Positions 27,259-62,714 of a DNA stretch of 64,000 nucleotides are shown here, in pieces. Position 1 is the first letter of the stretch, and every line of letters begins with the position of its first letter. Both the position numbers and the translations under genes were made by a program. This DNA comes from an uncultured Fibrobacteraceae bacterium. GTDB lineage: Bacteria; Krumholzibacteriota; Krumholzibacteriia; LZORAL124-64-63. Under the pieces are notes generated by a model. That model was not told the origin of the DNA, ran no database searches, and saw only the letters and a list, made by a program, of their open reading frames with translations. The DNA lies in the NCBI GenBank assembly GCA_964343835.1, contig CAYFKR010000008.1:64318-128317 (forward strand), in the 5' to 3' direction.

Positions 27259-27292
27259 GTCGGATCCTTTCTATGCGTCGGACGCGGGGTTC

Positions 27293-28954: not shown

Positions 28955-29131
28955 GGAAGCCTCCATCGTTCGTGTCCGGGCCGATGCGCGACGGGATCGC
29001 GTCGGGACGGACGTCCACGGATCGGCCCGCGGCGCGGGCCACTTGTACACTCAACGAATCGGTATGCGGGGGGTAGGGGTCCCGGCGGGACGCTACCACC
29101 CCGAACGGCCCCTGTCAAACCGGCCGCTCGA

Positions 29132-47949: not shown

Positions 47950-48075
47950 CGTATTCCCATCCGTGGCTCCTGCGAATCAGGAGTCAAATGCGCCTTGAGT
48001 CGGGGTGATCGATTGCTTAGTTTAGGCCGAACCAGGAATGTCGTAAAACAAAACCGGTTGCTCAAGGTGGTCCCG

Positions 48076-48537
48076 ATGGACATCCAGGACGTCCTGAAGC
48101 TCACGTCGCCCGACCTCTTCATCCCCGCCCTGTCCGCCAAGGACAAGAACGGCGTGCTGGAGGAGATGGTCGAGACCCTGCTCGCCGACCGCAGGCTCAC
48201 CAAGAAGGAGACCGTGCTGACCATGCTCGCGCACCGCGAGGAGATGGGCAGCACCGCCGTGGGTCCGGGCGTGGCCTTCCCCCACGGCCGCACGCTGGCG
48301 ACGGACGACCTGATCATCGTGGTCGCCCGCTCCGCCGACGGGGTCGACTTCGACTCCGTGGACGGCAATCCCACCCACCTGTTCTTCATGCTGATCGCGC
48401 CGCCCCAGGACTCCGGGAACCAGTACATCCGGTCCCTGGCCGTGCTGACCGAGAAGCTGGGCGACGAGGCCGTGCGCTCGGCCCTTCTCGAGGCCGCCGA
48501 CTACGACGCCTTCTGCGCCGCCCTGACGGAGGAGTGA
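48076..48537 (+). CDS. PTS EIIA (fructose/nitrogen family, PtsN-like) protein
   Basis: EIIA-Ntr fold with phospho-histidine region TAVGPGVAFPHGRT. Confidence 0.7.
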   Translation: MDIQDVLKLTSPDLFIPALSAKDKNGVLEEMVETLLADRRLTKKETVLTMLAHREEMGSTAVGPGVAFPHGRTLATDDLIIVVARSADGVDFDSVDGNPTHLFFMLIAPPQDSGNQYIRSLAVLTEKLGDEAVRSALLEAADYDAFCAALTEE

Positions 48538-48988: not shown

Positions 48989-50245
48989 TCAGTCGTGCCA
49001 GGCGCCGGTGAGGGTCTGGCTCATGGTCAGACCGCTCCCCTCCTCCTCCTCGAACTTCTTCTTCTCGCCGCCGTCGTCGCGCACGCCCAGGTCGGTGCGG
49101 GCCCACTTGGTGGAACCGGCGGGCAGGACGGTGGTCTCGGCCTCCCAGTCGATGCCGGGCTCCTTGCGGAAGACGAAGTCGGTGCCGTCGTGGTCGATCA
49201 TCACGAGATCGCCGCGGCGGATCTGCTCGCTGCAGATGTAGTGGGAGATGGGGGTCACCAGACGCTTCTCCACCACGCGCTTCAGGGGACGGGCGCCGAA
49301 CTCGGGGTCGGTGCCCTCGTCCACGAGACGGGCCTTGGCGTCCGCCGAAACCTCCAGCAGGAAGGGCTCGGAGCACAGCAGGGCGCGGTGGTGGATCTGG
49401 GCGATCTGGTTGTCGAGGATGCTGTAGAGGTGCTCCTCCTTCAGCGTCCCGTAGGTGATCAGGTCGTCGAAGCGGTTCAGGAACTCGGCCGGGAAGACCT
49501 TCTTGGCCTCGCGGTTCACGGCCTCGACGATGTCCCGGTCCATCTGCTCGCCGGTCTGGCCGGAGCTGAAGCCGATGTTGTTCTGGGACAGGTGCCGGTT
49601 CATGACCTTGCTGCCGACGTTCGAGGTGAGCACGATGATCGACCGGGTGAAGTCGACTTCCTCGTTGTTGGCGAGGATCAGGTGACCGTCCTCCAGGATG
49701 CCGAGCAGCGTATTCCACATCTTCGGGTGAGCCTTCTCGACCTCGTCGAAGAGAACGATGTTCAGGTACTGCTCGGCTTCCGGAGGGAACATCTCGCCCA
49801 GGCGGCTGCCCGCCTCGCTGATGAGTCCCGTGCGCTTCTCGATGGCCTTCAGGTGGTGCCGGTCCAGGTTCTCCTGGGCCAGCAGGGGACGGATCTCGCC
49901 GCCCACGTAACCCGGGGGCGAACCGAGGAGCTTGGAGATGTTGTAGTGCGCGGAGAATTCCTGGCAGTTGATCCGGGTGAAGGCCCGGCGGTCGCCGAAG
50001 ATCGTCTCGGCGAGGCAGCGCACGGTCTCGGTCTTGCCCACGCCGGTGGGGCCGAGGAACATCATCGTCAGCAGGGGCCGGTCGGGATCGTGGATCCCGG
50101 CGATCAGCCGGCTGAAGCTGTCGGTGATGCGCGAGCTGGCGTCGGGCTGCCCGATGACCATCTCGTCCATGCGATGCTGAAACCTGCGGAGCTGTCCACC
50201 CACCATGCCCGGCTTAAGTTCGATCACGTTCGGCACCTCGTCCAT
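48989..50245 (-). CDS. stand-alone AAA+ ATPase of the Clp (ClpA/ClpB D2-module) type with unknown C-terminal extension
   Basis: VIGQPDA...FLGPTGVGKTE (Walker A)...GSPPGYVGG...IVLFDEVEKAHP (Walker B)...LTSN (sensor 1)...GARPLKR (Clp D2 signature). No D1 module, N-domain or ClpX zinc finger. Confidence 0.7.
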   Translation of the reverse strand: MDEVPNVIELKPGMVGGQLRRFQHRMDEMVIGQPDASSRITDSFSRLIAGIHDPDRPLLTMMFLGPTGVGKTETVRCLAETIFGDRRAFTRINCQEFSAHYNISKLLGSPPGYVGGEIRPLLAQENLDRHHLKAIEKRTGLISEAGSRLGEMFPPEAEQYLNIVLFDEVEKAHPKMWNTLLGILEDGHLILANNEEVDFTRSIIVLTSNVGSKVMNRHLSQNNIGFSSGQTGEQMDRDIVEAVNREAKKVFPAEFLNRFDDLITYGTLKEEHLYSILDNQIAQIHHRALLCSEPFLLEVSADAKARLVDEGTDPEFGARPLKRVVEKRLVTPISHYICSEQIRRGDLVMIDHDGTDFVFRKEPGIDWEAETTVLPAGSTKWARTDLGVRDDGGEKKKFEEEEGSGLTMSQTLTGAWHD

Positions 50246-50385
50246 TCTCGCTATGGTAACCGGTTGTCGTCCCGGTCATTCGTTCCAGATGTTTCCCTTG
50301 GTCTGGAAAGCGGAAGCCCGCCTCTGCCCCATCATCGGACGGGCGGAGGCGGGCTTGAGCTTTTCCCTGCAAGAAATTCCGTATT

Positions 50386-52113
50386 CTACGGAGTCTCCAC
50401 GTCGAGGTACGGGATGCAGAGGTACGGCGCCTGCTCCTGGCCGGGCCTCTCCACCCAGCGGTCGTCGATGGACGCCCGCACCGGGGAGTGGGCCTTGATG
50501 TAGGCCTCGAAGGCCTCAGCCGTGGTGATCTGGGTCAGTTCGATGCGGTCGGCCGGGATCGTGGTCAGGAAGTCCAGGCCGCTGTTGCCCTCCATGAGGA
50601 AGGAGGTGCAGACCACCCGGTATTCCTTCTCGAGATCCAGGGGCTCGCCGTTGACGAGCAGGGCGCAGCAGCGGTCCCAGTCGGGGCGGCTGCGGTCGAA
50701 GACCACCTGCAGGCCCGAGGTGCACAGGCCGCCCGAGTTGCCCCGGACCTTCCGCTCCACGATGCGGCGGATCATGGAGCCCTTCATGGTCACGAGCACC
50801 AGCTCGTTGCCGAAGGGCAGCACGCTGAAGACGTCGCGGGCGGTGATGTCGCCGGCCGGGACGTCGGCGCGCAGGCCGCCGGTGTTCTGGAACGAGAAGT
50901 CGGCGTCGAAGTGGGCGCGCATGGCGTCGGTCACGAGGTTCCCCATGACGCTGTTGGCCCCGCCGCGGGTCAGGTTGACCGACGCGGAACCGATGACGCG
51001 GCCCATCTCGGCCTCGGTCATCTCGATGTACGGGCGCAGGGCCTCGGTCATCTCCTCGTGGGGCCAGAGCTCGTCCTCGAAGAGGGTGACCAGGGTGCCG
51101 CGGTCGTGGGGACCGGCCCAGTCGATGATCGTGCCGCTGTCGCGGTGGATCGTGAGGATGGCGTGGCCCACGCTCGAACCGTTGCCGTAGCTCTCGAAGC
51201 ACATGGTGTGGTTCACGGGGTCGATCCAGGGCTCCGGATAGCCGCGATGGGTGTGGCCGCCCACGGCGAAGTCGATGCCCGACACCGCGTTGACCAGCTC
51301 CATGAGGTTCATGACGCCGGACTGGACGTAGCCGTAGCCGCCGCCCGCGTCGCCCTGGGTGTCCTCGGCCTCGGCCTGGCTGCCCACGATGCGGGCCCAG
51401 CCGGCATCGGGGTCGTAGGGCAGGCCCTCGTGGATCAGCAGGCCCACGATGTCCACGCCGTCGGCCCGGAGCTCGTCGCGCCAGTGCTCGATGGTCGGGG
51501 CCATGGGCTCGAACGACAGGCCCCGGATGTTGTCCGGGAACGCCATGTGCTCGGTGGCCGGCGTGCAGATGCCGATCAGGCCGAGGCGCAGGCCGCCCAC
51601 GTCGAACTCGATGGTTGGCTCGCACCAGTCCACCACCTCGCCCGTGGACTCCTCCACGATGTTGGCGCAGATCCACGGCGCGTCGGTGGAGCGGGCCAGC
51701 TTCTCGCAGTTGTCACGGCCCATGTCGAAGTCGTGGTTGCCGGGCACGATGGCGTCGTAGCCGATGGTGTTGAAGAACTCCACCACCGCCTCGCCCTTGG
51801 TCTTGGTGCCCACCGGCGTGCCCTGGAAGGTGTCGCCGGCGTCCAGGAGCATCACGTACTCCCCGGCCGCGGCGGCCCTCTCGCGCACCTCCTCCACGTA
51901 GGTCATCATGGATGCGCCGCCGCCCAGGGGGGGCGGGAAGGCGGGGTTCATGAAGCGCGCCATCTCGGGCGCGATGTGGCCGTGGACGTCGTTGGTCCAC
52001 ATCAGGTGCAGGGTCACCATGCCGTCGTCGTCGGCTGCCGCGGCTCCCGTCGCCCCGAGGACGACGAGGGCCAGGGCCAGCAGGACGGCGCGTGTTCCGT
52101 TCATGGTTCTCAT
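50386..52113 (-). CDS. secreted bifunctional-type 5'-nucleotidase / metallophosphatase (UshA-like)
   Basis: Signal peptide MRTMNGTRAVLLALALVVLGATGAAAA. Intact motifs NDVHGH, DAGDTFQG, GNHDFD, GGHTHRGY, plus the C-terminal nucleotide-binding domain. ATG at 52113 after GGAGGAGAC. Confidence 0.8.
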   Translation of the reverse strand: MRTMNGTRAVLLALALVVLGATGAAAADDDGMVTLHLMWTNDVHGHIAPEMARFMNPAFPPPLGGGASMMTYVEEVRERAAAAGEYVMLLDAGDTFQGTPVGTKTKGEAVVEFFNTIGYDAIVPGNHDFDMGRDNCEKLARSTDAPWICANIVEESTGEVVDWCEPTIEFDVGGLRLGLIGICTPATEHMAFPDNIRGLSFEPMAPTIEHWRDELRADGVDIVGLLIHEGLPYDPDAGWARIVGSQAEAEDTQGDAGGGYGYVQSGVMNLMELVNAVSGIDFAVGGHTHRGYPEPWIDPVNHTMCFESYGNGSSVGHAILTIHRDSGTIIDWAGPHDRGTLVTLFEDELWPHEEMTEALRPYIEMTEAEMGRVIGSASVNLTRGGANSVMGNLVTDAMRAHFDADFSFQNTGGLRADVPAGDITARDVFSVLPFGNELVLVTMKGSMIRRIVERKVRGNSGGLCTSGLQVVFDRSRPDWDRCCALLVNGEPLDLEKEYRVVCTSFLMEGNSGLDFLTTIPADRIELTQITTAEAFEAYIKAHSPVRASIDDRWVERPGQEQAPYLCIPYLDVETP

Positions 52114-52147: not shown

Positions 52148-53431
52148 CTAGAACCGATAGATGAAGGTCGCACCCAGGCGGAAGCGGTTGTCCTCCACGC
52201 GGGCCGTGGGCACGGTCTCGAAGTCCTCGGGGTACGGGAACCAGTGCTCCTGCACCGAGGAGACCTTGCCCAGCTGGGCCGAGACGTCGAACATGCCGCC
52301 GCCGTAGGGCATGCCGATGCCGGCGGAGAACAGGCTCGCCGAGGCCTCGGTGTCCGCATACAGGTCGAAGTGGCGGAAGCCGAAGCGCACGGGCATGCCA
52401 TTGTAGAACACGTGCTCCACGCCCACACGGTAGTCGCGGGTGTTCTCGTCGAAGACCTTCGTGCCGTCGTCCTCGAACTGGGTCCACTCGGTCCAGACCA
52501 TCTCCAAGGTCACGACCGTGCGGGGCTCGGAACGGGGGTGATAGGCCAGGCCCATGCGGTACTGCTTGGGGTACGAGAACGTGCGGCCGACGGTCTCCCC
52601 CACCGGGTTCGCCAGGTCGGCGCCGGAGGCGGTGACGGTCTCCAGGTCGCCCTCGATGTCCACGGCCGTCTCGACCGAGGCGCCCAGGGTGAAGCGCTCG
52701 TCGGCCTCCACCAGGATGCCCGCCGTCCAGCCGAAGCCGTCGGCGTCGAGGGTCGAGTCCATGCTGTAGGTGTCGCCGGGGTTCTCGAAGACGCGCCTGT
52801 TGACGGCCCCCTCGAGGTCGGTGAACAGGTAGTGGGCCGTCAGACCCAGGCTCACCCGCTCGTTCAGGGCGTAGCCCGCGCCCAGGGCCAGGTCGCGCAG
52901 GGCGCCCGACGAGGACAGGGAACGCTCCTCCAGAATGCGGTCGCGGGGGTCGGAGAAGGAATCCGGGTCCCGCACCTGCTCCTCGAAGTCGTAGGCGAAG
53001 TCGTAGCGCTCGGTGAGCGACAGGCCGAGGCCGAAGCCCTCGCCGAAACTCCTCGCCACGGCGAAGCCGGCGTCGAGGTAGTGATGGCGGTTGCTGGCGA
53101 TGGCCGTGTCGGTGACGTAGCTGCCGAAGCTGTCGAAGAGGGGCTGGAAGCGGTCCTCGTGGTCCTGGGCCAGGGCCGCGCCGGCGTCCAGGCGCCAGGC
53201 GCCCGCCGCCGACAGGGTGGCCGGGTTGAGGACCGTGCCGAAGCCGCCGCGGTCGGCGGCCACGCCGGTGCCGCCCAGCGCGGCGATCTCTCCGCTGAGC
53301 CAGACGTCCGCCGAGCCGTAGCCGGGAGCGTCCACCGCCGAGCCCGCCCACGCGGCCGACGCCGCCGTCAGCAGGAGCGCGGCGAGGGCCGCGGTCCCGA
53401 TCCGGCTCGTGTATCGCTTGTTCTGCGTCAT
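52148..53431 (-). CDS. FadL/PorV-like outer-membrane beta-barrel protein
   Basis: Signal peptide. N-terminal NPA motif (GTVLNPATL). Amphipathic beta-strand pattern. C-terminal aromatic ending ...FIYRF. Confidence 0.5.
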   Translation of the reverse strand: MTQNKRYTSRIGTAALAALLLTAASAAWAGSAVDAPGYGSADVWLSGEIAALGGTGVAADRGGFGTVLNPATLSAAGAWRLDAGAALAQDHEDRFQPLFDSFGSYVTDTAIASNRHHYLDAGFAVARSFGEGFGLGLSLTERYDFAYDFEEQVRDPDSFSDPRDRILEERSLSSSGALRDLALGAGYALNERVSLGLTAHYLFTDLEGAVNRRVFENPGDTYSMDSTLDADGFGWTAGILVEADERFTLGASVETAVDIEGDLETVTASGADLANPVGETVGRTFSYPKQYRMGLAYHPRSEPRTVVTLEMVWTEWTQFEDDGTKVFDENTRDYRVGVEHVFYNGMPVRFGFRHFDLYADTEASASLFSAGIGMPYGGGMFDVSAQLGKVSSVQEHWFPYPEDFETVPTARVEDNRFRLGATFIYRF

Positions 53432-53447: not shown

Positions 53448-55973
53448 TCAGAAGGTGTAGTCCATCTGCAGGCGGAACGAGGTCCAGTCCCGCGGGGCGT
53501 AGCTGCTTTCGATGTCCGCTCCGTACTGCTCGCCGTACTGGCGCACGTCCAGGTAGGTGCGCGGCAGGTTGTGGTCGCGCGTCACCTTGAGCTGGAAGAG
53601 CATCTGGTCGGAGACGCGGCTCTCGACCTTGAACCAGTTGCGGAAGCCCCGGCCGTCCACCACCACGAACTCGTTCCCCTCGAAGTTCCAGAGGAAGCCG
53701 TTGTAGATCTCGGAGCTCAGGAGCAGCCGGATCGTCGGCGACAGGTGGTGTTCGTACATGGCCTGGAACGCGTTGGCCGGGATGCCGGCCGTGCCCACGC
53801 CGGGCACGCCGGCGTAACTGCGGGGTTCGGCCGCCTCGGGCACGCCGCTCAGGCGCTGACGGGCGGGGAACCACACGTTGGAGGTCATGTACATGAAGCG
53901 CAGCCGGTTGTAGTTGGACAGCAGCGTGATGAGCTCGAAGCGCGACTCCCAGGAGCGGAACCAGCGCACGTCGTTCAGGTTGTCCTCTGAACGGCTGCTG
54001 TACCGGTGCCGCATCCTCAGGCGGAAGTTGAACTTGGGCTGGTACTCCACGCGCATGGTGTAGCGCGTCATGTCCGTGCCGTCGGACTTCCTCTCCCACT
54101 GGTCGAACTCGAGCCCGTTGAGGATCAGGCTGCGGCTGATCCGGTAGCGGGTCTGCAGGAACATGCCCCGCTCGGGCTTGGGCTGGGGCGTGTTCAGCGA
54201 CAGCCAGCTGTAGTAGTCGTCGTTGAGGCGGTACCCCGAGTCGAGCAGGGTCTGCTCGTAGCGGCTGTCGTTGCTGAAGCCGCGGTTGTAGGGGTTGTCG
54301 TAGCCCACGTCGTAGTCGCGCCACAGGGCCAGCAGGTGCAGGTTCTCCCACTGGGCGAAGGCGTTGAGGACCAGGGCGTCGTTGCGCTCGCCCTTGAACC
54401 AGTCGGCCTTCGGGTCCTGGAGCACGCCGTACTCCCCCTGGAACGACACGTTGTCCACCACGTGCTGGAACTCGGCGCCGTACACGCGGCGGAACTTGTG
54501 CTCCGTCACCGTGCCGTCCTTGTCCTCGCTGCGCTCGACGCTGTTGTAGCCCTGCCAGACCTCGCTGTCGCGGGCGTCCAGGTAGCCCTGGTTCAGGCTG
54601 TACTGGCTGACCAGGGTGGTCGGGTCGGGGTCGAAGCCGCGGTTGTAGCGGGCCTCGTACGCCGTCACGCCCACGTAGGTCGCGTCGCCCAGCATGTAGC
54701 GCAGGTTGCCGCCCACCAGATCCTCCCGGAGGCCGTCGCGGCGCAGGAGGGTCGGGGTGTCCGGGGCGTCGCCGGCGCCGTAGAGACGGCCGGGCTCGTA
54801 GGCCAGGTGCTCGTCGTACCACGAGTCGTAGGGACGCGGGAACGTGGAGACCTGACGGTTGATGGTGCCGTCCGGGTTGACGATGACGTCCCTCTTCTGC
54901 CAGCTCGCGAAGAACGTGGTGTAGAGGTTGCCGACGCGGCCCTCCATGGCGGCGCCCGTCAGGTCGTAGTCGTAGCTCCGGCTCAGATCGCCGCGCACGC
55001 CGATGGGGCGCTTGTTCCAGCCGAAGCCGGTCTTGCGGAACAGCACGTAGTCCGTGTTGTCCATGACCAGGCCCTGGCCGAAGGCCACGCGGAAGTTGCC
55101 GAAGTACAGGCCCTTGACGTGGAAGGGACCGAAGTCCTTGTCCTCCATGCCGTAGTAGGCCTTGGTGGTCTGGTTCCAGTGCTCCTCGTACATCTGACGG
55201 TCGGTGAGCACGCCCGCCTTGAACCCGTTGGTGAGGTTCAGGGTGAGCTTGTGGGTCAGGTGGAAGTCGCCGCCGTTGGGCAGGGTCGACGCGGCGATCT
55301 CCTCCTCGTCCATGGACAGCGGCGTGTTGTAGTACCGCGTCTGGTAGTTGCCGTGGACCTTGTCGCTGGCGCCGGCCTGCTCGTCCGAGTAGACCACGAA
55401 GTCGCGCAGGTTCCGGAACGACCAGTAGCGCAGCCCGTCGGCCCGGCGCAGCTGGCGCTGGGTCTCGAAACCGCCGAGGCGGTCGCGAGCCGCGATGATG
55501 TTCCGGGCGTCCACCGGCGAGACGTTCTGGAACGTCTGCAGGTCGAAGAGGTCCAGGTTGTTCACGTTGACCGGATCACGCATGAGGTCCAGGTACTCGT
55601 CCACGAGTCCCTCGCTGGCGCCCTCCTGGCCCAGGTAACGGCTCACCTGCCGGTACGAGGCCGCCAGGCGGGCGATGGACGCGTCCTGCGGGTCCGGGGG
55701 CATGGTCGAGACCAGGGGCTTGAGGGCCGCCAGGTGCTCGGCGGTCATGCCCTCGACCTCCATGAGGTCGTAGAGGCTGCCGAAGTACCGCACGTAGGTG
55801 CGATAGTCGATGATGCTCCGCGCCACCTCCTCGGGGATCGGCAGGTCCATCACCTCGGCCATGGAGGCCCGGTTCAGGTCCAGTCGATCCGCCGGGGCGG
55901 CCGCGGCCGCTCCGCACAGGATCGCGCCCAGCAGCAGGCACGCGATCCCGACGGTCGTTCTGCGCATCGTCAC
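53448..55973 (-). CDS. helix-hairpin-helix (ComEA-like) domain fused to a large outer-membrane beta-barrel
   Basis: Signal peptide, then LDLNRASMAEVMDLPIPEEVARSIIDYR (HhH) and a second HhH-like segment (VSPVDARNIIAARDRLGGFE). About 650 aa of barrel-like sequence ending ...QMDYTF. Confidence 0.5.
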   Translation of the reverse strand: MTMRRTTVGIACLLLGAILCGAAAAAPADRLDLNRASMAEVMDLPIPEEVARSIIDYRTYVRYFGSLYDLMEVEGMTAEHLAALKPLVSTMPPDPQDASIARLAASYRQVSRYLGQEGASEGLVDEYLDLMRDPVNVNNLDLFDLQTFQNVSPVDARNIIAARDRLGGFETQRQLRRADGLRYWSFRNLRDFVVYSDEQAGASDKVHGNYQTRYYNTPLSMDEEEIAASTLPNGGDFHLTHKLTLNLTNGFKAGVLTDRQMYEEHWNQTTKAYYGMEDKDFGPFHVKGLYFGNFRVAFGQGLVMDNTDYVLFRKTGFGWNKRPIGVRGDLSRSYDYDLTGAAMEGRVGNLYTTFFASWQKRDVIVNPDGTINRQVSTFPRPYDSWYDEHLAYEPGRLYGAGDAPDTPTLLRRDGLREDLVGGNLRYMLGDATYVGVTAYEARYNRGFDPDPTTLVSQYSLNQGYLDARDSEVWQGYNSVERSEDKDGTVTEHKFRRVYGAEFQHVVDNVSFQGEYGVLQDPKADWFKGERNDALVLNAFAQWENLHLLALWRDYDVGYDNPYNRGFSNDSRYEQTLLDSGYRLNDDYYSWLSLNTPQPKPERGMFLQTRYRISRSLILNGLEFDQWERKSDGTDMTRYTMRVEYQPKFNFRLRMRHRYSSRSEDNLNDVRWFRSWESRFELITLLSNYNRLRFMYMTSNVWFPARQRLSGVPEAAEPRSYAGVPGVGTAGIPANAFQAMYEHHLSPTIRLLLSSEIYNGFLWNFEGNEFVVVDGRGFRNWFKVESRVSDQMLFQLKVTRDHNLPRTYLDVRQYGEQYGADIESSYAPRDWTSFRLQMDYTF

Positions 55974-56857
55974 GGCGTCTCACCACCCCAGGCGAAGGTC
56001 ATGCCGAACTGGTGGCTGGGCTTGAGGATGCCGCCGCCGCTGGAGAAGGCGTAGTCCACGCCGAAGCCCTCGAAGACGTAGCCGAAGCCGGCGGTCATCT
56101 TGTTCGGGTTCGACAGGACGCCCGCCCGCAGGGCCAGCCGGTCCAGCACGGTGAACTCGACGCCGCCGTGGTACTGGGGGTCGTAGCCCAGCGCGGACTC
56201 GATCTCGAAGACCGTCGTCACGCCGTCGTAGGGCTCGTAGGCCAGGCCTGCGTGGAGGCGCTGGGTGAGCTCCTCGTTGTCCAGGCCGATGGTCGGGTTG
56301 TTCACGTTCTTCACCATCACGCCCAGGCGGGTGCGGCGGTGGAGGGTGACCAGCAGGCCCACGTCGCCGCCCACGGCGCCGGCGTCGCCGGGGTCGATCC
56401 CGGAGACCGTCTCGCCGAACTCGAGGCGGTAGAAGTTCAGGGCCGTACCCACGTCGACGGTGGTGTGCAGGTCCTCGTACAGGCGGATGCCGTGGGCGAG
56501 GGTGAACGTGGTCTCGTTGTGGAGATCCACGCCGTCGTACGTGGTGGCGAAGCGCCGCAGGCCGAAGCCCAGGCCGCCGTAGCGGCCCACGGGCATCACG
56601 CCGCCGAAGTAGAGCTGGTCCGTGAAGTCCAGCTGGTACGGCTTGACGTAACTGTTGCCCAGGGCGTAGCCGACCTGGTTGGCCATGCCGGCGGGGTTGA
56701 AGTAGGGGGCGAAGGCATCGTCAGCCGTCGCCACGCCCGAGTCGCCCATGCCGCGGGCGCGCGGGCTCGTATCGACGTTCTCGAAAGCCGCAAGCGCCGG
56801 CCCCGCTGCGAAGCACAGGGCCAGGGCGGCGAGCGTCAGGATCGTCAGTCGCTTCAT
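55970..56857 (-). CDS. small FadL-like / PorQ-PorP-like outer-membrane beta-barrel protein
   Basis: Signal peptide MKRLTILTLAALALCFAAGPALA. NPAG motif. C-terminal ...FAWGGETP. ATGA overlap with the downstream gene. Confidence 0.4.
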   Translation of the reverse strand: MKRLTILTLAALALCFAAGPALAAFENVDTSPRARGMGDSGVATADDAFAPYFNPAGMANQVGYALGNSYVKPYQLDFTDQLYFGGVMPVGRYGGLGFGLRRFATTYDGVDLHNETTFTLAHGIRLYEDLHTTVDVGTALNFYRLEFGETVSGIDPGDAGAVGGDVGLLVTLHRRTRLGVMVKNVNNPTIGLDNEELTQRLHAGLAYEPYDGVTTVFEIESALGYDPQYHGGVEFTVLDRLALRAGVLSNPNKMTAGFGYVFEGFGVDYAFSSGGGILKPSHQFGMTFAWGGETP

Positions 56858-56870
56858 GGCTCGCGTCCTC

Positions 56871-59800
56871 CTAGCGGCTCAGGGTGGTGGCCACGACCGC
56901 GGGGGCGACGACTTCGTCGCGCTGTCCCGTGATCTCGTCCACCACCAGAAGGTGGATGATGTAGGTGCCGGCCTTGACCAGCTCGAAGGTGTCGGTGCGT
57001 CCGTCCCACTCCATGTCCAGACGATTGATCTCGGCCTCGCCGAGGTCGAACCGGCTGTCGAAGAGGTTGCGGACGACCCGGCCCTCCAGATCGAAGATCC
57101 GCACCTGGGCCTCGGAGCCGCTCGGGTAGGTGACGGTGAAGGGGAACGCCTCGCCCAGATAGGCCAGGAAGGTCTTCGCCGGCACGTTCAGGGAGAAGGG
57201 CGCCAGGATGTCCATCAGCATGGGCGCGGCCTCCCAGGAGGCCGGGAAGTACAGCACGTCCTCGCCGGTGTGCACGCTCACCCACCAGCTCACCGTGACG
57301 CCCTCGTCGAAGGCGGGCACGGAGCAGGACCAGGCGCCGGTCTCGTCGGCGGTCATGTCCACCGTGCGCTCCGAGCCGCCGTCCACCGCGTAGTGGAAGA
57401 CGATGGAGTCGGGGGTCTCCAGACCGTCCACGTCCACCAGTTCCAGGGTGAAGGTCGACGGCGTGCCCGCGGGGGGCTGCGGAGGCGAGAAGGCGAAGCC
57501 GGCCACGATCTCGCTGAACACGCCCGGGGTGCCGGTGTTGACCACCCAGGTGTTGCTCAGGTCCTCGCCGGTCTCGTCGTGGCCCAGGGTGCCGTTGCCG
57601 CCGGTGGTGGGCTCGGCGCCCTCGGTGGCGTCCAGGCGCTGGAACGTCTGGCCGATCTCGTGGGTGTCCAGGAACTGGTCCTGGGAGCCCACCGGCGTGT
57701 CGTCCTCGTAGGGCGTGCCGTTGATGGAGTAGTTGTTGCGGTACACGCGGGCGCTGGTGGACTCGCCCCACATGAACATGTCGATGTCCTTCACCAGGTC
57801 GCTGACCTGGTCCCAGTAGTACAGGACCATGATCTCGGCGCCGTTGGTGAGGGTCGCGGCGTCGCCGGTGGGACTGCCCAGGCGGCTGCCCGGGAAGACG
57901 TCCAGCAGGTCGGGCACGTCGTCGGACGAGGAGCCGTCCTCGATGAGCTCGAAGTCAGGCGCCACGGCCCAGACGCCCTCGAAGGCGTCGCTGCCGGCGA
58001 TGGAGATGGTCAGGCTCTGGCCCGGCTGGATCACCGCGTCGGCGGGGAAGCGGGCGTGGAAGTCGTAGAAGTCGCCGCCGCCGATGGTGGACTGCTGGGG
58101 GTTGCCCTCGGGCAGTCGCCAGTAGGCCTGCGTGTTGTAGACGGCGTCGGTCAGGTAGTAGTTGTCCAGCTCCACGGCCTCGTTCGTCGGGTTGTAGATC
58201 TCGACGAACTCGTGGGTGGTCCCCATGACGCAGACCTCCGTCAGCAGCAGCTTCGGAGGGTTGGGTACGGGTTCGAGGGGCTCCTGGATCGTGAAGGTCT
58301 CCACGGTGCCGGGGGCGCCGGCGGGCCAGACGGCGGTGTCGCCGCCCGAGGCCGTGGCCGTGACGTACCAGGTGACCACGGCATCGAGGGCCTGGGTCGG
58401 GATGTCGCCCGACCACATGCCGCCGCCACCGTCGGTGCAGGTCACGTTCGCGTAGGCGCCGCCGTCGACGGCGTAGCTCAGGGTCACGCCTGTGACCGGC
58501 ACCAGGTTGACCACCGTGGCGGTGACCGTGGTGGGCTCGTCGGGGTTGGGCCGCGCAGGCGAAGTGGAGGCGGCGGTGATGGTCAGCGACTCGGAGCTGA
58601 ACTCGCCGGGGGTGCCGGCGGTGGCGACCACCCAGGTGGAGCTGACGTTCTCGCCGGTCTCGTCGTCGCCGCCGGGACCATTGCCCACCAGGTCGGGCTC
58701 GCTGCCCTCGGAGGGGTCGATGCGCTCGAAGGTGCCGCCGATCTCGTGGGCGGTCATGAACCGGTCCTGGGATGCGACCGGAGTGTCGGCCTGGTAGGTA
58801 GACGAACCGATGGTGTAGCCGGTGCGGTCCACCGCGGCGCTCGTGCTGGAGCCCCACATGAACATGTCCACGTCGGAGACCAGTTCCGTCACGCCGTCCC
58901 AGTAGTACAGCACCAGGATCTCGGCGCTGTTGGTCAGGGTGGCGGCGGCGGAGCCGTCCGGGGCGCCCAGCAGGCTGCCCGGGAAGATCTCGCGCATGTC
59001 CGCCACGTCGTCGGCGGAACCGCCGTCCTCGAGGAGCTCGAAGTCGGGGTCCATGCCCCAGACGGAGCTGAAGGCGTCGCTGCCGGCGATGGAGATGGTC
59101 AGGGTCTCCCCCGGGCCGATCTCGGCGTCGGCCGGGAAGCGGGCGTGGAAGTCGTTGAAGTCGCCGCCGCCGACGGTGTTCTGGGCCGGGCTGCCCTCGG
59201 GCAGGCGCCAGTAGCCCTGGTCGTTGTAGACGGCGTCGGTGAGGTAGTAGTCGTCCAGGGACACGGCCTCGTCGGTCGGGTTGTGGATCTCGACGAACTC
59301 GTGGTCGGTGCCCTGCACGCAGACCTCGGTCAGCAGCAGGTGCACGGGACCGTCGCCCGGATCCGGGGCCTCCTGGACCGTGTAGGTGGTGGCGTAGAAG
59401 GGGGCGTTGGCCGGGGCCTGGGCGGTGCCGCCGCCGGTGCCGACGGCCTCGAACCACCAGGCCACCTGGGCGCCGAGGGCCTGGGCCGGGATCTGGGCGC
59501 TCCAGTCGTCGCCGGCGGCCGAGGCCGCAACGTCGGTCCAGGCGCCGCCGTCCACGCTGTAGTGCAGCGTGGCCGAGGCGACCGCGTCGTTGGCCAGCAC
59601 CGTGGCCGTGACGTTCACCGGGAAGCCCACGTAGGCCGTGGCCGGCGAGGCCTCCAGGGCCGTCACGATGGGCGAGGGAGCCGGGCCCGTGCCGGTGGAG
59701 GCCGGGGTCTGGTCGCCCGTGTTGGTCCAGGTGGAGGTCAGGGGCTCGCTGGTCTCGTCGTCGCCGCCGGAGCCGTTGCCGCCGGTGGCGGTCTCGCCCG

Positions 59801-60587
59801 TCTCCTCGGCGTCGGTACGGACCAGGGCGTCGCCGTAGGTGTGGACGGCCAGGTCGTCCTGGGCGGCCACCGGGGTGTCCGCCTGGTAGGCGGTGGCCGT
59901 CTCGTCGGCGTCAGGGCCGTCCACGCTCACGCCGGTCTTGTCGACGCGGTAGACGTTGGAGGTGCCCCACAGCACGTAGTCCAGGTCGGTGACCAGGTCC
60001 GAGGCGCCGTCCCAGGTGTACAGCACCAGGCTCTCGCCGCTGTCGCCGAGCCAGCCTTCGCTGGGCAGGTCGTTGGTGCCGGTGCTGCCGAGGCCGAAGG
60101 CGATGGCGCCGGGGAAGGCCTCGCGCATGTCCGGCACGGCGTCGGGGGCGCTGCCGTCCTCGAAGAGCTCGAAGTCGGGGGCCTCGCCGGGGTAGGACAG
60201 GGCGAAGAGGTCGGAACCCCGCAGGGAGATCACGAAGGTCTCTCCTGCTCCCAGGGTGGTGCCGTCGGGGAAGCGGGCGTTGAAGTCGCCGCCGGTACCG
60301 CCGCCGCCCGCCTGGCCGCCCTCGACGAGCTGCCAGTAGCCGGAGCCGGTGTAGAGGGCGTCGGTCAGGTAGACGTCGGAAAGGTCCACGGCCGCCGCGG
60401 TGGGGTTGTGGATCTTCACGTACTCGCTGCCGAAGGACGGAATGCCCGGCCGCTCCCGCATCACCACTTCGGCGATCTGCAGGTGGTCGGCCGCGGCCGA
60501 GGCGATCGTCGGGACGAACGCCAGGACGGCGGCGAGGGCCAGCAGCGCCTTGGTGACGGCGTGCGTGCTCCTGTTCGGGTATGTCAT
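56871..60587 (-). CDS. 1238-aa secreted protein with three tandem lamin-tail-domain (LTD) repeats and a T9SS-type / FlgD-Ig-like C-terminal sorting domain
   Basis: Signal peptide. LTD core repeated three times: LQIAEVV...EYVKIHNPTAAAVDLSDVYLTD, LLLTEVCVQGTDHEFVEIHNPTDEAVSLDDYYLTD, LLLTEVCVMGTTHEFVEIYNPTNEAVELDNYYLTD. Each repeat continues ...YWRLPEG...GGGDF.DFHARFPADA.I.PG..LTISIAGSDAF. C-terminus AQVRIFDLEGRVVRNLFD...EWDGRTD.FELVKAGTYIIHL. Confidence 0.6.
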   Translation of the reverse strand: MTYPNRSTHAVTKALLALAAVLAFVPTIASAAADHLQIAEVVMRERPGIPSFGSEYVKIHNPTAAAVDLSDVYLTDALYTGSGYWQLVEGGQAGGGGTGGDFNARFPDGTTLGAGETFVISLRGSDLFALSYPGEAPDFELFEDGSAPDAVPDMREAFPGAIAFGLGSTGTNDLPSEGWLGDSGESLVLYTWDGASDLVTDLDYVLWGTSNVYRVDKTGVSVDGPDADETATAYQADTPVAAQDDLAVHTYGDALVRTDAEETGETATGGNGSGGDDETSEPLTSTWTNTGDQTPASTGTGPAPSPIVTALEASPATAYVGFPVNVTATVLANDAVASATLHYSVDGGAWTDVAASAAGDDWSAQIPAQALGAQVAWWFEAVGTGGGTAQAPANAPFYATTYTVQEAPDPGDGPVHLLLTEVCVQGTDHEFVEIHNPTDEAVSLDDYYLTDAVYNDQGYWRLPEGSPAQNTVGGGDFNDFHARFPADAEIGPGETLTISIAGSDAFSSVWGMDPDFELLEDGGSADDVADMREIFPGSLLGAPDGSAAATLTNSAEILVLYYWDGVTELVSDVDMFMWGSSTSAAVDRTGYTIGSSTYQADTPVASQDRFMTAHEIGGTFERIDPSEGSEPDLVGNGPGGDDETGENVSSTWVVATAGTPGEFSSESLTITAASTSPARPNPDEPTTVTATVVNLVPVTGVTLSYAVDGGAYANVTCTDGGGGMWSGDIPTQALDAVVTWYVTATASGGDTAVWPAGAPGTVETFTIQEPLEPVPNPPKLLLTEVCVMGTTHEFVEIYNPTNEAVELDNYYLTDAVYNTQAYWRLPEGNPQQSTIGGGDFYDFHARFPADAVIQPGQSLTISIAGSDAFEGVWAVAPDFELIEDGSSSDDVPDLLDVFPGSRLGSPTGDAATLTNGAEIMVLYYWDQVSDLVKDIDMFMWGESTSARVYRNNYSINGTPYEDDTPVGSQDQFLDTHEIGQTFQRLDATEGAEPTTGGNGTLGHDETGEDLSNTWVVNTGTPGVFSEIVAGFAFSPPQPPAGTPSTFTLELVDVDGLETPDSIVFHYAVDGGSERTVDMTADETGAWSCSVPAFDEGVTVSWWVSVHTGEDVLYFPASWEAAPMLMDILAPFSLNVPAKTFLAYLGEAFPFTVTYPSGSEAQVRIFDLEGRVVRNLFDSRFDLGEAEINRLDMEWDGRTDTFELVKAGTYIIHLLVVDEITGQRDEVVAPAVVATTLSR
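57800..60500 (-). repeat. three tandem intragenic repeats of about 0.95-1.0 kb encoding the LTD-containing units
   Basis: Repeated nucleotide stretches (for example GAAGTCGCCGCCGCCGA(T/C)GGTG..., CTCGAAGTCGGGG..., GTAGTACAGCACCAGGATCTCGGCGC...) at roughly 1-kb spacing. They parallel the protein repeats. Confidence 0.5.
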
Positions 60588-60699: not shown

Positions 60700-61161
60700 T
60701 CAGCCCTGGGGGGCCGGATCGCCGAAGCAGGCCAGCAGTTCCTCTGCCGTCGCCGCTCCTCGCAGGCAATCCAGGAAACCGTCTTCACGGACGGCGCGCA
60801 CGAGGCGTGCGAGCAGCCGCAGCATGGTCCGGGGATCCGTCTCCGGGCCGACGATCAGGAAGAGCACGTCCACCTCGGCGTCGGGGCCGTGCTCGTGGGG
60901 TACCGGGGCTTCCAGGGTCGCCACGGCGAGTCGTGGGGTGGTCACATGACGCGATCGTACGTGCGGAATGGCCACGCCGCGGCCCACGGCGGTGTCGCCG
61001 ACGAGCTCGCGGGCCAGGATGTCGCGCAACAGCGCCTCATCGTCCGCCACCACGCCGTCGCGGGCCAGGGCTTGGACGAGACGCGCGATGGCCTTATCCT
61101 TGGCATCGCAGTCCAGACGGGGCAACATGCAGGTGCCCGCGGTGAAATCCTGAAGCATCAT
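60700..61161 (-). CDS. PTS EIIA (PtsN-like) protein, second paralogue
   Basis: Phospho-histidine region TAVGRGVAIPHVRS. Same fold and length as the gene at 48076..48537. Confidence 0.65.
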   Translation of the reverse strand: MMLQDFTAGTCMLPRLDCDAKDKAIARLVQALARDGVVADDEALLRDILARELVGDTAVGRGVAIPHVRSRHVTTPRLAVATLEAPVPHEHGPDAEVDVLFLIVGPETDPRTMLRLLARLVRAVREDGFLDCLRGAATAEELLACFGDPAPQG

Positions 61162-61217
61162 GGCCCCCAACTGTAACGACAGCCCATGACCCTGTCCAGA
61201 GTCGGAAACGAGAAACC

Positions 61218-62714
61218 TTGGCTTACCGGGATCCCTTCGCTCCACTGACACGACGACGCCGGCTGGCGGCCCTCCGGGACCGTGCGGTGCGGGGCCTGCT
61301 GCGTCCGTTTCGGGGCACCCGCGTGGGTCACAGCGGCGACGGCCCGCCGAGCCTGCTGGTGGTAGCCGTGGACACGCTGCGCGACGATCACGTCGGGGAC
61401 AGGCGGACCGGCGAATCCCTGACCCCGGCCATGGATCGCCTCGCCGCCGAAGGCGTACGCTACTCATCCGTGTCCGCCCCCGCCCCCTGGACCCTCCCCT
61501 CGTTCACCAGCGCCCTGACCGGCGTGATGCCCACGGTCCACGGCGCCGGCATGACCGGCGGCATGCGCAACATGGCCCACGACGCCCCGCGCCCCCTGCC
61601 GGATCGGGCCGTGACCCTGGCCCGCCACCTCGGCGCCCAGGGCTACGCCACCGCGGCCTTCCACTCCAATCCCTTCGTGACCTTCGGCCTGGCCGAGAGC
61701 TTCGGCGAGCACCACTACCGCAACCACGCCTGCGCCGACGTGGCCGCCGGCGCCCTGGACTGGATCCGCCGCCACGGCGACCGTCCGTTCTTCTGCTTCG
61801 TGCTGTTCAACGACCCCCACGAGCCCACCCTGCCGACCCCGCGTCACTTCGGCCCCCTGCTCGAGGCCGCCGGGCAGGGCCCCGGCACATGGTCGCCGGA
61901 AGACCTGCGCTCCCTGGCCCGCTGGGGCGGCACCGACGCCGCGCCCCACCTGGGCCGCGAGCCCCTCCCCCTGTCCGACGCCGCCCGCCGGACCCTGGAC
62001 GCCAAGCTGGCCCTCTACGGCGGCGCGGTCGCGTCGGTGGACGCGGCCCTGGACGGCATGCTGCGCCAGCTCGAGCGCTGGGGCCTGGACGGCACCACCC
62101 TGGTGACGGTGCTGTCCGACCACGGCGAAGAATTCCTGGAGCACACCGAGGCCGCCCACGCCTGGAACCACGACCCCCGCGACCTGCGGGCCATCGGCCA
62201 CGGCCACACCCTGTTCGAGGAACTGCTCCACGTGCCGTGGATCGCCCGGGGACCGGGGTTGCCGAACGGAGCCCTGCGCAGCGGCGACGTCTCCCTGTGC
62301 GACGTGGGCCCGACGCTGAGCCGCTGGCTGGGCGCCCCCGACCTGCCGCTGCCCGCGGTGGACATGCCCGAGCTCCTGGGTGGCCCCCTGCCGGCGGACG
62401 GCGACGACGACGCCCCGCGGATCCTCCTGGCGGAGAACATCGCCTACGGACCGGATCTGGTGTCGGTGAGGAAGGGGACCTGGAAGCTGACGGCCCACCG
62501 CGACGGACGCGTGCTGGCCCTGCATGATCTGGGAGATGATCCCGGCGAGATGCGGGACCGGGCCGACGACCATCCGCAGATGCTGGCGGAACTCAGCGCC
62601 GTGCTCGACCGCTGGCGCGAAGCGGCGGCCCGGGGCGACGACGGCGGCGACGGCTGGGAGTCGACGGACGAGCGGATCCTCCGCCAGCTGCGGGAGCTGG
62701 GCTACGCGGAGTAG
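61218..62714 (+). CDS. sulfatase-like hydrolase (alkaline-phosphatase superfamily) lacking the canonical C/S-x-P-x-R formylglycine motif
   Basis: LLVVAVDTLRDD metal-binding start. The signature position reads APWTLPSFTSALTG instead of (C/S)xPxRxxxxTG. C-terminal TVLSDHGEEF. Confidence 0.6.
   Translation: MAYRDPFAPLTRRRRLAALRDRAVRGLLRPFRGTRVGHSGDGPPSLLVVAVDTLRDDHVGDRRTGESLTPAMDRLAAEGVRYSSVSAPAPWTLPSFTSALTGVMPTVHGAGMTGGMRNMAHDAPRPLPDRAVTLARHLGAQGYATAAFHSNPFVTFGLAESFGEHHYRNHACADVAAGALDWIRRHGDRPFFCFVLFNDPHEPTLPTPRHFGPLLEAAGQGPGTWSPEDLRSLARWGGTDAAPHLGREPLPLSDAARRTLDAKLALYGGAVASVDAALDGMLRQLERWGLDGTTLVTVLSDHGEEFLEHTEAAHAWNHDPRDLRAIGHGHTLFEELLHVPWIARGPGLPNGALRSGDVSLCDVGPTLSRWLGAPDLPLPAVDMPELLGGPLPADGDDDAPRILLAENIAYGPDLVSVRKGTWKLTAHRDGRVLALHDLGDDPGEMRDRADDHPQMLAELSAVLDRWREAAARGDDGGDGWESTDERILRQLRELGYAE

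What the first reader, a model, noticed from the sequence alone, without database searches (positions are those of the whole stretch)
53448..55973. Unusual fusion of a ComEA-like helix-hairpin-helix DNA-binding module to an outer-membrane beta-barrel
After the signal peptide, the N-terminus has one clear HhH motif (LDLNRASMAEVMDLPIPEEVARSIIDYR) and a second HhH-like motif. These motifs are normally periplasmic or soluble DNA-binding elements (ComEA, competence). Here they precede about 650 residues of amphipathic beta-strand sequence ending in an aromatic terminus (...DYTF), typical of an OM barrel. An HhH domain physically attached to a large barrel suggests DNA handover at or through the outer membrane. 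Sizes of 22 strands or more are usually transporters.
Basis: partly seen in the sequence, partly recalled or inferred. Interest (0 to 1): 0.65.

Follow-up and report, generated by a model that had tools for sequence, protein, structure and literature searches.

The report
Outer-membrane barrel with built-in ComEA-like domains
This gene encodes a predicted 24-stranded outer-membrane barrel carrying two ComEA-type helix-hairpin-helix modules on its periplasmic end, and because it always sits in a five-gene cluster with nucleotide- and DNA-degrading functions in several uncultured phyla, it is probably an undescribed route for taking up environmental DNA.

Summary
Window 53448-55973 (-) is a real gene of 841 aa. 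It has a signal peptide and two HHH_3 modules (Pfam E=7.8e-18). AlphaFold2 (pLDDT 84, pTM 0.81) models the rest as a 24-strand beta-barrel ending in the OMP signal ...DYTF.

The barrel matches no Pfam or NCBIfam family. Among solved structures it matches outer-membrane barrels only generically.

The fusion is conserved, not a one-off. Every barrel homologue listed also carries HHH_3. A motif scan found relatives in 407 species genomes, all MAGs. Names seen include Krumholzibacteria, Eisenbacteria, Zixibacteria and Cloacimonadota.

In 80 species loci the gene order is invariant: LTD surface protein (58/58), PorV-like barrel (73/73), HhH-barrel, FadL-like barrel (70/70), secreted 5'-nucleotidase (53/53). 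Relatives at 26-32% identity add EEP nucleases, acid phosphatase, OB-fold surface proteins and adenosine deaminase.

Best reading (inferred): a pilus- and TonB-independent extracellular-DNA or oligonucleotide scavenging cassette. The barrel would be the outer-membrane conduit and the periplasmic HhH modules would retain substrate. It is analogous, not homologous, to the Bacteroidales ddb DNA-utilisation loci.

Caveats: the HhH hairpins are degenerate, module 1 is acidic, and no DNA binding or transport has been shown.

The parts
53448..55973 (-). Gene for the 841-aa HhH-barrel protein (the finding)
   Evidence: ORF; GC3 0.97; more than 120 full-length homologues at 53-73% identity
55896..55973 (-). 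Signal peptide (aa 1-26, MTMRRTTVGIACLLLGAILCGAAAAA), type I, with no canonical lipobox
   Evidence: Read from the translation; modelled as a helix at aa 3-21
55704..55886 (-). HhH module 1 (aa 30-90), an HHH_3/(HhH)2 fold. It is acidic, and its first hairpin is shortened to LP-IPEE
   Evidence: Pfam PF12836 best stretch aa 30-88; alignments to EEPD1 9yi2 and T. thermophilus ComEA-related 2duy; pI 4.1-5.7 across 22 members
55575..55703 (-). Acidic helical linker (aa 91-133) between the two HhH modules
   Evidence: Helices at aa 98-114 and 121-132; net charge -2 to -9 in 21 of 22 members (+2 in P0167, whose linker is longer)
55389..55574 (-). HhH module 2 (aa 134-195), mostly basic, carrying the nearly invariant motif QNVSPVDA
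   Evidence: TIGR00426 match at aa 135-191; alignment to B. subtilis ComEA 8dfk; D155 and A156 invariant, S152 and P153 in at least 90% of 72 sequences
53451..55355 (-). 24-strand outer-membrane beta-barrel (aa 207-841) with the C-terminal beta-signal ...RLQMDYTF
   Evidence: AF2 models; Foldseek hits only to OM barrels; no Pfam family
54963..55079 (-). Most conserved loop (aa 299-337, GQGLVMDNTD...KRPIGVRGDLSRS), following strand 5. Predicted to lie on the extracellular or lumenal side; a candidate constriction or substrate site
   Evidence: Invariant G299, G301, D308, R313, G316, R322 and D329 in 72 sequences; position follows from the strand order
54174..54311 (-). Second conserved loop (aa 555-600, with family motif [FY]DNPYxR[SGA]FS), following strand 13
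   Evidence: The motif retrieved 407 confirmed relatives from genome contigs; invariant N560, P561, R564 and F566; pLDDT 87-90
55970..56857 (-). PorV/PorQ-family small outer-membrane barrel (295 aa). Its stop overlaps the start of the HhH-barrel gene
   Evidence: NCBIfam PorV_fam E=9.4e-19, below cut-off; F. johnsoniae PorV 6h3i_F E=2e-4; immediately upstream in 73/73 loci
56871..60587 (-). Surface protein of 1238 aa with three lamin-tail domains, CBM56-like Ig modules and a FlgD-Ig/T9SS-like C-terminal domain
   Evidence: Pfam LTD E=2.5e-27 in 3 stretches, CBM_56; weak PorU and FlgD C-terminal matches; upstream in 58/58 loci; orthologues elsewhere carry OB-fold, FlgD_ig, CHU_C or Por_Secre_tail domains
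52148..53431 (-). FadL/PorV/BamG-like outer-membrane barrel (427 aa), 16 bp downstream of the HhH-barrel gene
   Evidence: Pfam Toluene_X E=3.8e-10; NCBIfam BamG E=6.7e-20, below cut-off; downstream in 70/70 loci
50386..52110 (-). Secreted 5'-nucleotidase (UshA-type: Metallophos plus 5_nucleotid_C) with a signal peptide
   Evidence: Pfam 5_nucleotid_C E=7.4e-35, Metallophos 3.2e-9; downstream in 53/53 loci
50378..50392 (-). Terminator-like hairpin with a T-run, at the stop codon of the 5'-nucleotidase gene; a possible operon end
   Evidence: It is the only such site in 13 kb, but shuffles give 3.3 on average, so the evidence is weak

Best explanation
The gene encodes the central outer-membrane component of a conserved five-gene envelope cassette for scavenging extracellular nucleic acid. 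Shown by computation: a signal peptide, two tandem ComEA-type (HhH)2 modules joined by an acidic helical linker, and a 24-strand beta-barrel of an undescribed family. Also shown: invariant co-linearity with an LTD surface protein, a PorV-like barrel, a FadL-like barrel and a secreted 5'-nucleotidase. Inferred mechanism, step by step. (1) The LTD (elsewhere LTD/OB-fold/EEP-nuclease) protein is exported by a type-IX-like route. It is held at the surface by the adjacent PorV-like barrel, where it captures DNA; in other lineages it also cuts DNA. (2) DNA fragments or oligonucleotides pass through the arginine-lined 24-strand barrel, past two strongly conserved lumenal or extracellular loops. (3) The barrel's N-terminus, and therefore the HhH modules, lie in the periplasm. 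There they bind the incoming strand and bias its movement inward, acting as a tethered ComEA-like ratchet and so removing the need for TonB or a pilus. (4) Periplasmic nucleases (elsewhere in the genome here, inside the cassette in other lineages) and the 5'-nucleotidase convert the substrate to nucleosides and phosphate for uptake.
For: Architecture: HHH_3 E=7.8e-18 in two stretches; ComEA and EEPD1 are the only PDB sequence relatives, and they match the N-terminal region only; a 24-strand barrel at pLDDT 84.3 and pTM 0.81; only OM barrels among Foldseek hits. Topology: short turns follow even-numbered strands and long loops follow odd-numbered strands. Under the standard OMP rule this puts both the N-terminus and the C-terminal beta-signal on the periplasmic side. 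Obligate fusion: every barrel homologue listed carries PF12836. Context: PorV-like 73/73, FadL-like 70/70, 5'-nucleotidase 53/53 and LTD 58/58 in species-level loci at 36-67% identity. At 26-32% identity the same four neighbours persist, and further genes join them: acid phosphatase, two EEP nucleases (one fused to LTD), OB-fold surface proteins with T9SS-type C-termini, and adenosine deaminase. Lumen: strand residues facing inward are 32 basic against 18 acidic, with many invariant Arg. Precedent: Bacteroidales ddb loci combine surface DNA binders, nucleases and an OM transporter (PMC12478041), and ComEA acts as a periplasmic DNA-retaining factor (PMC3879209).
Against: No assay of DNA binding or transport exists, and all hosts are uncultured MAGs. 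The first hairpin of each HhH module lacks the Gly-hydrophobic-Gly turn (LP-IPEE, NVSPVDA). Module 1 is acidic in all 22 members examined and the linker in 21 of 22. HHH_3-like folds also serve non-DNA roles; a GspK match appears, and PsbU is known from my own knowledge. This window's cassette contains no recognisable nuclease. The role of LTD is unknown, and LTD was dispensable for DNA degradation by ExeM (PMC6085458). 5'-nucleotidases also hydrolyse other nucleotides, so the substrate could be mononucleotides rather than DNA. The two long, highly conserved loops may plug the pore, and the tool returns no model coordinates, so pore openness and HhH placement were not inspected. One distant homologue, from Zixibacteria, lies outside any such cassette.
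Confidence: 0.5

Rival explanations
1. Scaffold or anchor, not a conduit. The barrel would be a structural member of a multi-barrel surface-attachment complex with the PorV-like and FadL-like barrels. That complex would hold the T9SS-delivered LTD protein at the surface. The degenerate, partly acidic HhH modules would be periplasmic protein-protein (or cell-wall) contacts, and no nucleic acid would cross through the barrel.
For: Both neighbours belong to the PorV/FadL superfamily, which in T9SS shuttles and anchors cargo. The first gene carries T9SS-type C-terminal domains in relatives. The HhH hairpins are degenerate and module 1 is acidic. The Zixibacteria homologue sits beside SPOR, LapA and LapB envelope genes instead of the cassette.
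Against: This reading does not explain why a nucleotidase, nuclease or phosphatase is kept in the same operon across phyla. A 24-strand barrel with an Arg-rich lumen and two deeply conserved loops is more than an anchor needs. The best relatives of the HhH region are DNA-binding modules of ComEA and the nuclease EEPD1.
Confidence: 0.2
2. Natural-transformation uptake channel. The cassette would be the outer-membrane DNA-entry device for competence in lineages that do not use a type IV pilus and PilQ secretin. It would hand dsDNA to a periplasmic or inner-membrane ComEC pathway rather than feeding catabolism.
For: The ComEA-type modules are fused to the barrel. [quoted passage not shown]
Against: The invariant partners are degradative: 5'-nucleotidase, and in relatives EEP nucleases, acid phosphatase and adenosine deaminase. 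No comEC, dprA or comF was seen in the parts of the window or of the loci that were inspected.
Confidence: 0.15
3. Nucleotide- or phosphate-ester-specific porin. The barrel would admit mononucleotides or other small anionic organophosphates produced outside the cell. The HhH modules would dock the periplasmic 5'-nucleotidase under the pore.
For: The lumen-facing residues are Arg-rich. The only enzyme always present is a mononucleotide phosphatase.
Against: A 24-strand barrel is much larger than known specific porins, and the Foldseek hits with similar strand numbers are ushers, MtrB and TBDTs. Large LTD/OB-fold surface proteins and endonucleases in the cassette point to a polymer substrate.
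Confidence: 0.1

Closest known systems
Bacteroidales DNA-utilisation locus ddbABCDEF (DdbC TonB-dependent transporter, DdbD DUF5689 surface DNA binder, nucleases), related to Riemerella anatipestifer natural-transformation genes (PMC12478041, PMC8459023)
   Same: Both are operon-encoded, PUL-like combinations within the FCB group. Each joins a surface nucleic-acid-binding or nuclease protein, a large outer-membrane barrel and periplasmic nucleic-acid hydrolases. Riemerella additionally needs a separate periplasmic HhH protein.
   Different: There is no homology. The barrel here has 24 strands and lacks a plug, a TonB box and CarboxypepD_reg or TonB_dep_Rec domains. The surface partner is an LTD protein with a T9SS-like C-terminus rather than a DUF5689 lipoprotein. 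The HhH modules are fused to the barrel. Two extra PorV/FadL-type barrels are obligatory.
ComEA (periplasmic competence DNA receptor; TIGR01259/TIGR00426, Pfam HHH_3)
   Same: The (HhH)2 fold is shared, in two copies, with a predicted periplasmic location. ComEA is thought to pull DNA inward by binding it (PMC3879209).
   Different: Scores fall far below the family cut-offs (37 vs 152 bits; 26.8 vs 53.1). The protein is 841 aa and membrane-integrated, with degenerate first hairpins and an acidic module 1.
Chaperone-usher pore PapC/FimD, MtrB and TonB-dependent transporters (large monomeric OM barrels)
   Same: All are monomeric barrels of 22-26 strands, large enough to pass a polymer. They are the Foldseek hits closest in strand number.
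   Different: TM-scores are at most 0.30 and identity is 6-11%. There are no usher, plug or MtrB Pfam matches. The periplasmic domains are of a different kind.
ExeM/NucH-type extracellular nucleases (LTD + OB-fold + EEP) with UshA-type nucleotidases in eDNA foraging (PMC6085458, PMC8289736)
   Same: The same domain repertoire (LTD, OB-fold, EEP, 5'-nucleotidase) is distributed over the cassette genes in this family's loci.
   Different: Those systems have no dedicated outer-membrane barrel set. Here the domains sit in T9SS-type surface proteins next to three OM barrels.

Membership tests
ComEA (TIGR01259 comE / TIGR00426 HhH repeat region) | Profile score at or above the curated cut-off | tested here: not met
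   37.0 bits against a cut-off of 152.35; 26.8 bits against 53.1
ComEA (TIGR01259 comE / TIGR00426 HhH repeat region) | (HhH)2 domain of Pfam HHH_3 type | tested here: met
   PF12836 E=7.8e-18, 64.8 bits against a cut-off of 27, two stretches
ComEA (TIGR01259 comE / TIGR00426 HhH repeat region) | Canonical Gly-hydrophobic-Gly hairpins in both HhH motifs of a module | tested here: not met
   First hairpins read LP-IPEE and NVSPVDA. Second hairpins keep one Gly, as in EGMT and DGLR
ComEA (TIGR01259 comE / TIGR00426 HhH repeat region) | Sequence-independent DNA binding | not testable with these tools
   Needs EMSA or similar with aa 28-200
TonB-dependent transporter (including DdbC/SusC type) | N-terminal plug domain, TonB box and a 22-strand TonB_dep_Rec barrel | tested here: not met
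   No Plug, TonB_dep_Rec or CarboxypepD_reg match at E<=0.1 or E<=10 on ten barrel-only members. 24 strands are modelled. Foldseek TMq to TBDTs is at most 0.30
Secretin (PilQ/GspD) | Secretin domain (PF00263) and N-domains forming a homo-oligomeric pore | tested here: not met
   No Pfam match. The protein models as a closed monomeric barrel
Chaperone-usher pore (PapC/FimD) | Usher Pfam domain with a plug and N/C periplasmic domains | tested here: not met
   No Pfam match. The strand number (24) is the same, but TMq is 0.26-0.30 at 7-10% identity
LptD | OstA/LptD_N and LptD barrel domains | tested here: not met
   No such match for this protein. A separate LptD gene lies at window 8491-12354
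Generic bacterial outer-membrane beta-barrel protein (BAM substrate) | Signal peptide, even number of antiparallel strands closing a barrel, C-terminal aromatic beta-signal | tested here: met
   Signal peptide; 24 strands...DYTF with conserved R834, Q836, D838 and Y839, F841 being the consensus residue; Foldseek probability 1.0 to OM barrels
Bacteroidales ddb-type DNA-utilisation locus | DdbC TBDT homologue plus DUF5689 partner plus secreted nucleases in one locus (PMC12478041) | tested here: not met
   No TBDT in the cassette, and no DUF5689 in the cassette genes or the other window genes scanned. Nucleases occur only in relatives' cassettes. The resemblance is functional, not homologous

The most novel reading that the evidence does not exclude
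The HhH-barrel would be a self-contained outer-membrane DNA translocon, independent of a pilus, a secretin and TonB. A 24-strand pore would carry its own tethered ComEA-like ratchet. Working with two PorV/FadL-type barrels and a T9SS-displayed LTD 'DNA catcher', it would constitute a third, previously unrecognised way for diderm bacteria to bring DNA across the outer membrane. It would be widespread in uncultured FCB-group phyla (Krumholzibacteriota, Eisenbacteria, Cloacimonadota, Zixibacteria).
Probability: 0.3. Interest if true: 0.85.

Novelty: new variant of a known kind. Interest (0 to 1): 0.62.

Why it matters
How DNA crosses the outer membrane is understood for two routes: type IV pilus with secretin, and, recently and only in outline, a TonB-dependent transporter in Bacteroidota. 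Extracellular DNA is a major phosphorus, nitrogen and carbon pool in sediments, soils and sludge, where Krumholzibacteria, Eisenbacteria and their relatives live. If this cassette is a DNA or oligonucleotide import device, three things follow. It would define a new outer-membrane protein family, because the barrel has no Pfam model and no close structural relative. It would show ratchet-type uptake built directly into the channel. It would also give a genomic marker for DNA-foraging capacity in uncultured phyla. Even if the rival scaffold reading is right, it would reveal a conserved three-barrel surface-display module downstream of T9SS outside Bacteroidota.

Tried and rejected
(1) Search for a known family for the barrel. 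Pfam and NCBIfam on the whole protein, Pfam at E<=10 on ten barrel-only members, and a PDB profile search all found nothing beyond the HhH region.
(3) TBDT, secretin, usher and LptD membership were rejected (see membership tests).
(4) Net charge as a test of DNA binding was inconclusive. Module 1 is acidic, but by my own count the B. subtilis ComEA HhH domain is also slightly acidic, so charge alone does not decide.
(5) Source organism of the window. The exact protein (P0001) is in the collection but not in the gene-position index. Cluster look-up gave no names for most representatives. Identity with named homologues points to Krumholzibacteria.
(6) Six full-text literature searches found no description of this family or cassette.
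(7) The downstream ClpB-like AAA gene was considered as a sixth cassette member. It was rejected because it is conserved only among the closer (Krumholzibacteria-like) loci.
(8) Model coordinates are not returned by the tool. Pore diameter, loop plugging and the position of the HhH modules relative to the barrel could therefore only be inferred from strand and loop order.
Full report
**1. Observation**

The reported coordinates match an 841-aa ORF on the minus strand (53448-55973). Its GTG start overlaps the stop codon of the upstream gene (GTGA), and an ATG lies two codons further in. Third-position GC is 0.97, typical of genuine genes in this ~69% GC window.

After a type-I signal peptide, Pfam HHH_3 (PF12836) matches at E=7.8e-18 (64.8 bits, cut-off 27) in two stretches. 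Module 1 is aa 30-88. Module 2 is aa 135-191, supported by TIGR00426 and by an alignment to B. subtilis ComEA.

A profile of 22 family members searched against all PDB sequences hits only through this N-terminal region. The hits are the HhH pairs of the nuclease EEPD1 (E=2.1e-15) and ComEA (5.6e-9, 3.4e-8).

**2. The barrel**

AlphaFold2 with a 34-sequence alignment gave pLDDT 70.6. A 72-sequence alignment reaching down to 32% identity gave pLDDT 84.3 and pTM 0.81. Both models show the same 24 long strands between aa 207 and 840.

Foldseek against the PDB returns several hundred hits at probability ~1.0. All listed hits are bacterial outer-membrane barrels: Deinococcus SlpA, Campylobacter MOMP, the PapC/FimD ushers, MtrB, many TonB-dependent transporters and Occ porins. 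None exceeds TM 0.30 or 11% identity. The fold class is therefore secure, but no solved family is a specific relative.

Pfam finds nothing in the barrel, even at E<=10 on ten diverse barrel-only sequences. NCBIfam likewise finds nothing there.

The C-terminus ...FRLQMDYTF is a classical BAM beta-signal with R834, Q836, D838 and Y839 conserved. Short turns follow even-numbered strands and long loops follow odd-numbered strands. By the standard OMP rule this places the N-terminus, and hence both HhH modules, in the periplasm.

The two most conserved segments of the whole protein are long loops after strands 5 and 13: aa 299-337, and aa 555-600 with the motif [FY]DNPYxR[SGA]FS. Inward-facing strand residues are 32 basic against 18 acidic and include many invariant arginines.

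**3. The fusion is a conserved family**

More than 120 proteins at 53-73% identity have the same length and architecture. [quoted passage not shown]

An exhaustive HMMER scan of 1.84 billion representatives found 100 clusters at E<1e-30, with full-length matches down to 26-28% identity. A barrel-only profile retrieved only proteins that also carry PF12836. The single exception was one shorter (739-aa) protein on a 2.8-kb contig.

The family motif picked out 407 species genomes of 185,579, all of them MAGs. Names seen for family members include Krumholzibacteria, Eisenbacteria, Zixibacteria and Cloacimonadota. Some MAGs carry other labels, such as Fibrobacteraceae, Gemmatimonadota, Latescibacterota and Saccharimonadales.

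**4. Gene neighbourhood (the key new evidence)**

In the window the gene is the third of five tightly packed minus-strand genes:

| Gene | Coordinates | Size |
|---|---|---|
| Surface protein with 3 LTD domains, CBM56-like modules and a FlgD-Ig-like C-terminus | 56871-60587 | 1238 aa |
| PorV/PorQ-family barrel | 55970-56857 | 295 aa |
| HhH-barrel | 53448-55973 | 841 aa |
| FadL/BamG-like barrel | 52148-53431 | 427 aa |
| Secreted UshA-type 5'-nucleotidase | 50386-52110 | 574 aa |

A terminator-like hairpin follows the last gene.

In the 80 best species-level loci (36-67% identity) this order is invariant wherever the contig reaches far enough:

| Neighbour | Loci with the neighbour / loci long enough to judge |
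|---|---|
| PorV-like, upstream | 73/73 |
| FadL-like, downstream | 70/70 |
| 5'-nucleotidase, downstream | 53/53 |
| LTD protein, upstream | 58/58 |

Contexts of much more distant homologues (26-32% identity) keep orthologues of the same neighbours (phmmer) and add more nucleic-acid functions:

- A marine lineage has acid phosphatase, an EEP nuclease that shares its other part with the 5'-nucleotidase, and an EEP+LTD nuclease.
- Others have 5'-nucleotidase with LTD, PKD and Por_Secre_tail proteins.
- In some, the first gene combines an OB-fold nucleic-acid-binding domain with FlgD_ig, CHU_C or Por_Secre_tail C-termini.
- One locus has an adjacent adenosine deaminase.
- Among the seven distant homologues examined, a Zixibacteria one lacks the cassette and one contig was too short to judge.

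**5. Mechanism**

The domain set spread over the cassette (LTD, OB-fold, EEP, 5'-nucleotidase) matches that of known extracellular-DNA foraging enzymes such as ExeM and UshA (PMC6085458, PMC8289736).

The operon logic mirrors polysaccharide-utilisation loci. It also mirrors the recently described Bacteroidales DNA-utilisation locus ddbABCDEF. That locus joins surface binders and nucleases with an outer-membrane transporter and periplasmic hydrolases, and part of it is homologous to Riemerella natural-transformation genes (PMC12478041, PMC8459023).

I therefore propose the following sequence. The LTD protein captures DNA at the surface, held there by the PorV-like barrel. Fragments pass through the 24-strand Arg-lined barrel. 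The periplasmic HhH modules retain the entering strand, as ComEA is thought to do (PMC3879209). The 5'-nucleotidase and nucleases then finish the breakdown.

What is shown: the architecture, the conservation and the synteny. What is inferred: the topology, DNA binding, passage through the barrel and the ratchet.

**6. Evidence against, and rivals**

- The first hairpin of each HhH module has lost the G-h-G turn. Module 1 (all 22 members) and the linker (21 of 22) are acidic, with pI about 4-5.7; module 2 is usually basic.
- The window's cassette contains no nuclease.
- The role of LTD is unknown.
- The conserved loops might plug the pore.

The rivals considered are a three-barrel surface-display scaffold with HhH as a protein-contact module (0.2), a competence uptake channel (0.15), and a nucleotide-specific porin with a docking domain (0.1).

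**7. Comparison and novelty**

The protein fails the membership tests for ComEA (scores far below cut-offs), TonB-dependent transporters, secretins, ushers and LptD. A separate LptD gene lies at 8491-12354. It is a generic BAM-type outer-membrane barrel of an unmodelled family.

Six full-text searches found no description of this family or cassette. I rate it a new variant of a known kind. The kind is an outer-membrane polymer or DNA-utilisation system; here it is built from non-homologous parts, with the DNA-binding module fused to the channel.

Interest is 0.62. The cassette is striking and well conserved and bears on how DNA crosses the outer membrane. All the evidence is computational, however, and the hosts are uncultured.

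Noticed in passing
window 48989-50245 (-): A single-ring ClpB-D2-like AAA+ protein (AAA_2 plus ClpB_D2-small, 418 aa) lies directly downstream of the cassette. It is conserved there at 60-75% identity in the closer, Krumholzibacteria-like loci and is not detected in most of the more distant (Eisenbacteria-like) ones. Its relation to the cassette is unknown.
   Followed up: partly
window 8491-12354 (-): An unusually long LptD homologue (1287 aa; LptD_N/OstA plus LptD_2). It confirms a diderm envelope and shows that the HhH-barrel is not the LPS insertase.
   Followed up: partly
L082:9080-10993 and L084:4439-6340: In distant relatives' cassettes, the gene in the 5'-nucleotidase position carries an EEP nuclease domain in its C-terminal part. 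It still shares strong similarity (E about 1e-48 to 1e-70) with the window's 5'-nucleotidase. This looks like a domain swap or fusion between nucleotidase and nuclease.
   Followed up: partly
window 60700-61467 (-), 61464-62573 (-) and 47128-48537 (+): Two PTS EIIA-2 (nitrogen-type) domain proteins flank the cassette region. The upstream one, together with an unannotated 369-aa protein, is syntenic with the cassette in many Krumholzibacteria loci, so a regulatory link is possible.
   Followed up: partly
window 17505-20301 (-): A response regulator fused to a PglZ (alkaline-phosphatase-fold) domain sits next to a histidine kinase. This is an uncommon output domain for a two-component system.
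   Followed up: no
L087:10001-13756: A 1251-aa family member carries about 430 residues of TPR repeats N-terminal to the HhH modules and barrel. It still sits in a cassette with a FadL-like gene, a 5'-nucleotidase and two LTD genes, so the periplasmic end can accept extra interaction domains.
   Followed up: partly
window 56871-60587 (-): The LTD protein is built from three repeats of an LTD plus Ig-like (CBM56-like) unit, followed by a FlgD-Ig-like C-terminal domain resembling T9SS sorting domains. It has no PDB sequence relative at E<=0.01.
   Followed up: partly
window 25138-29050 (-): A tandem pair of M16 (insulinase-type) peptidase genes of 706 and 585 aa, probably a secreted heterodimeric peptidase.
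   Followed up: no
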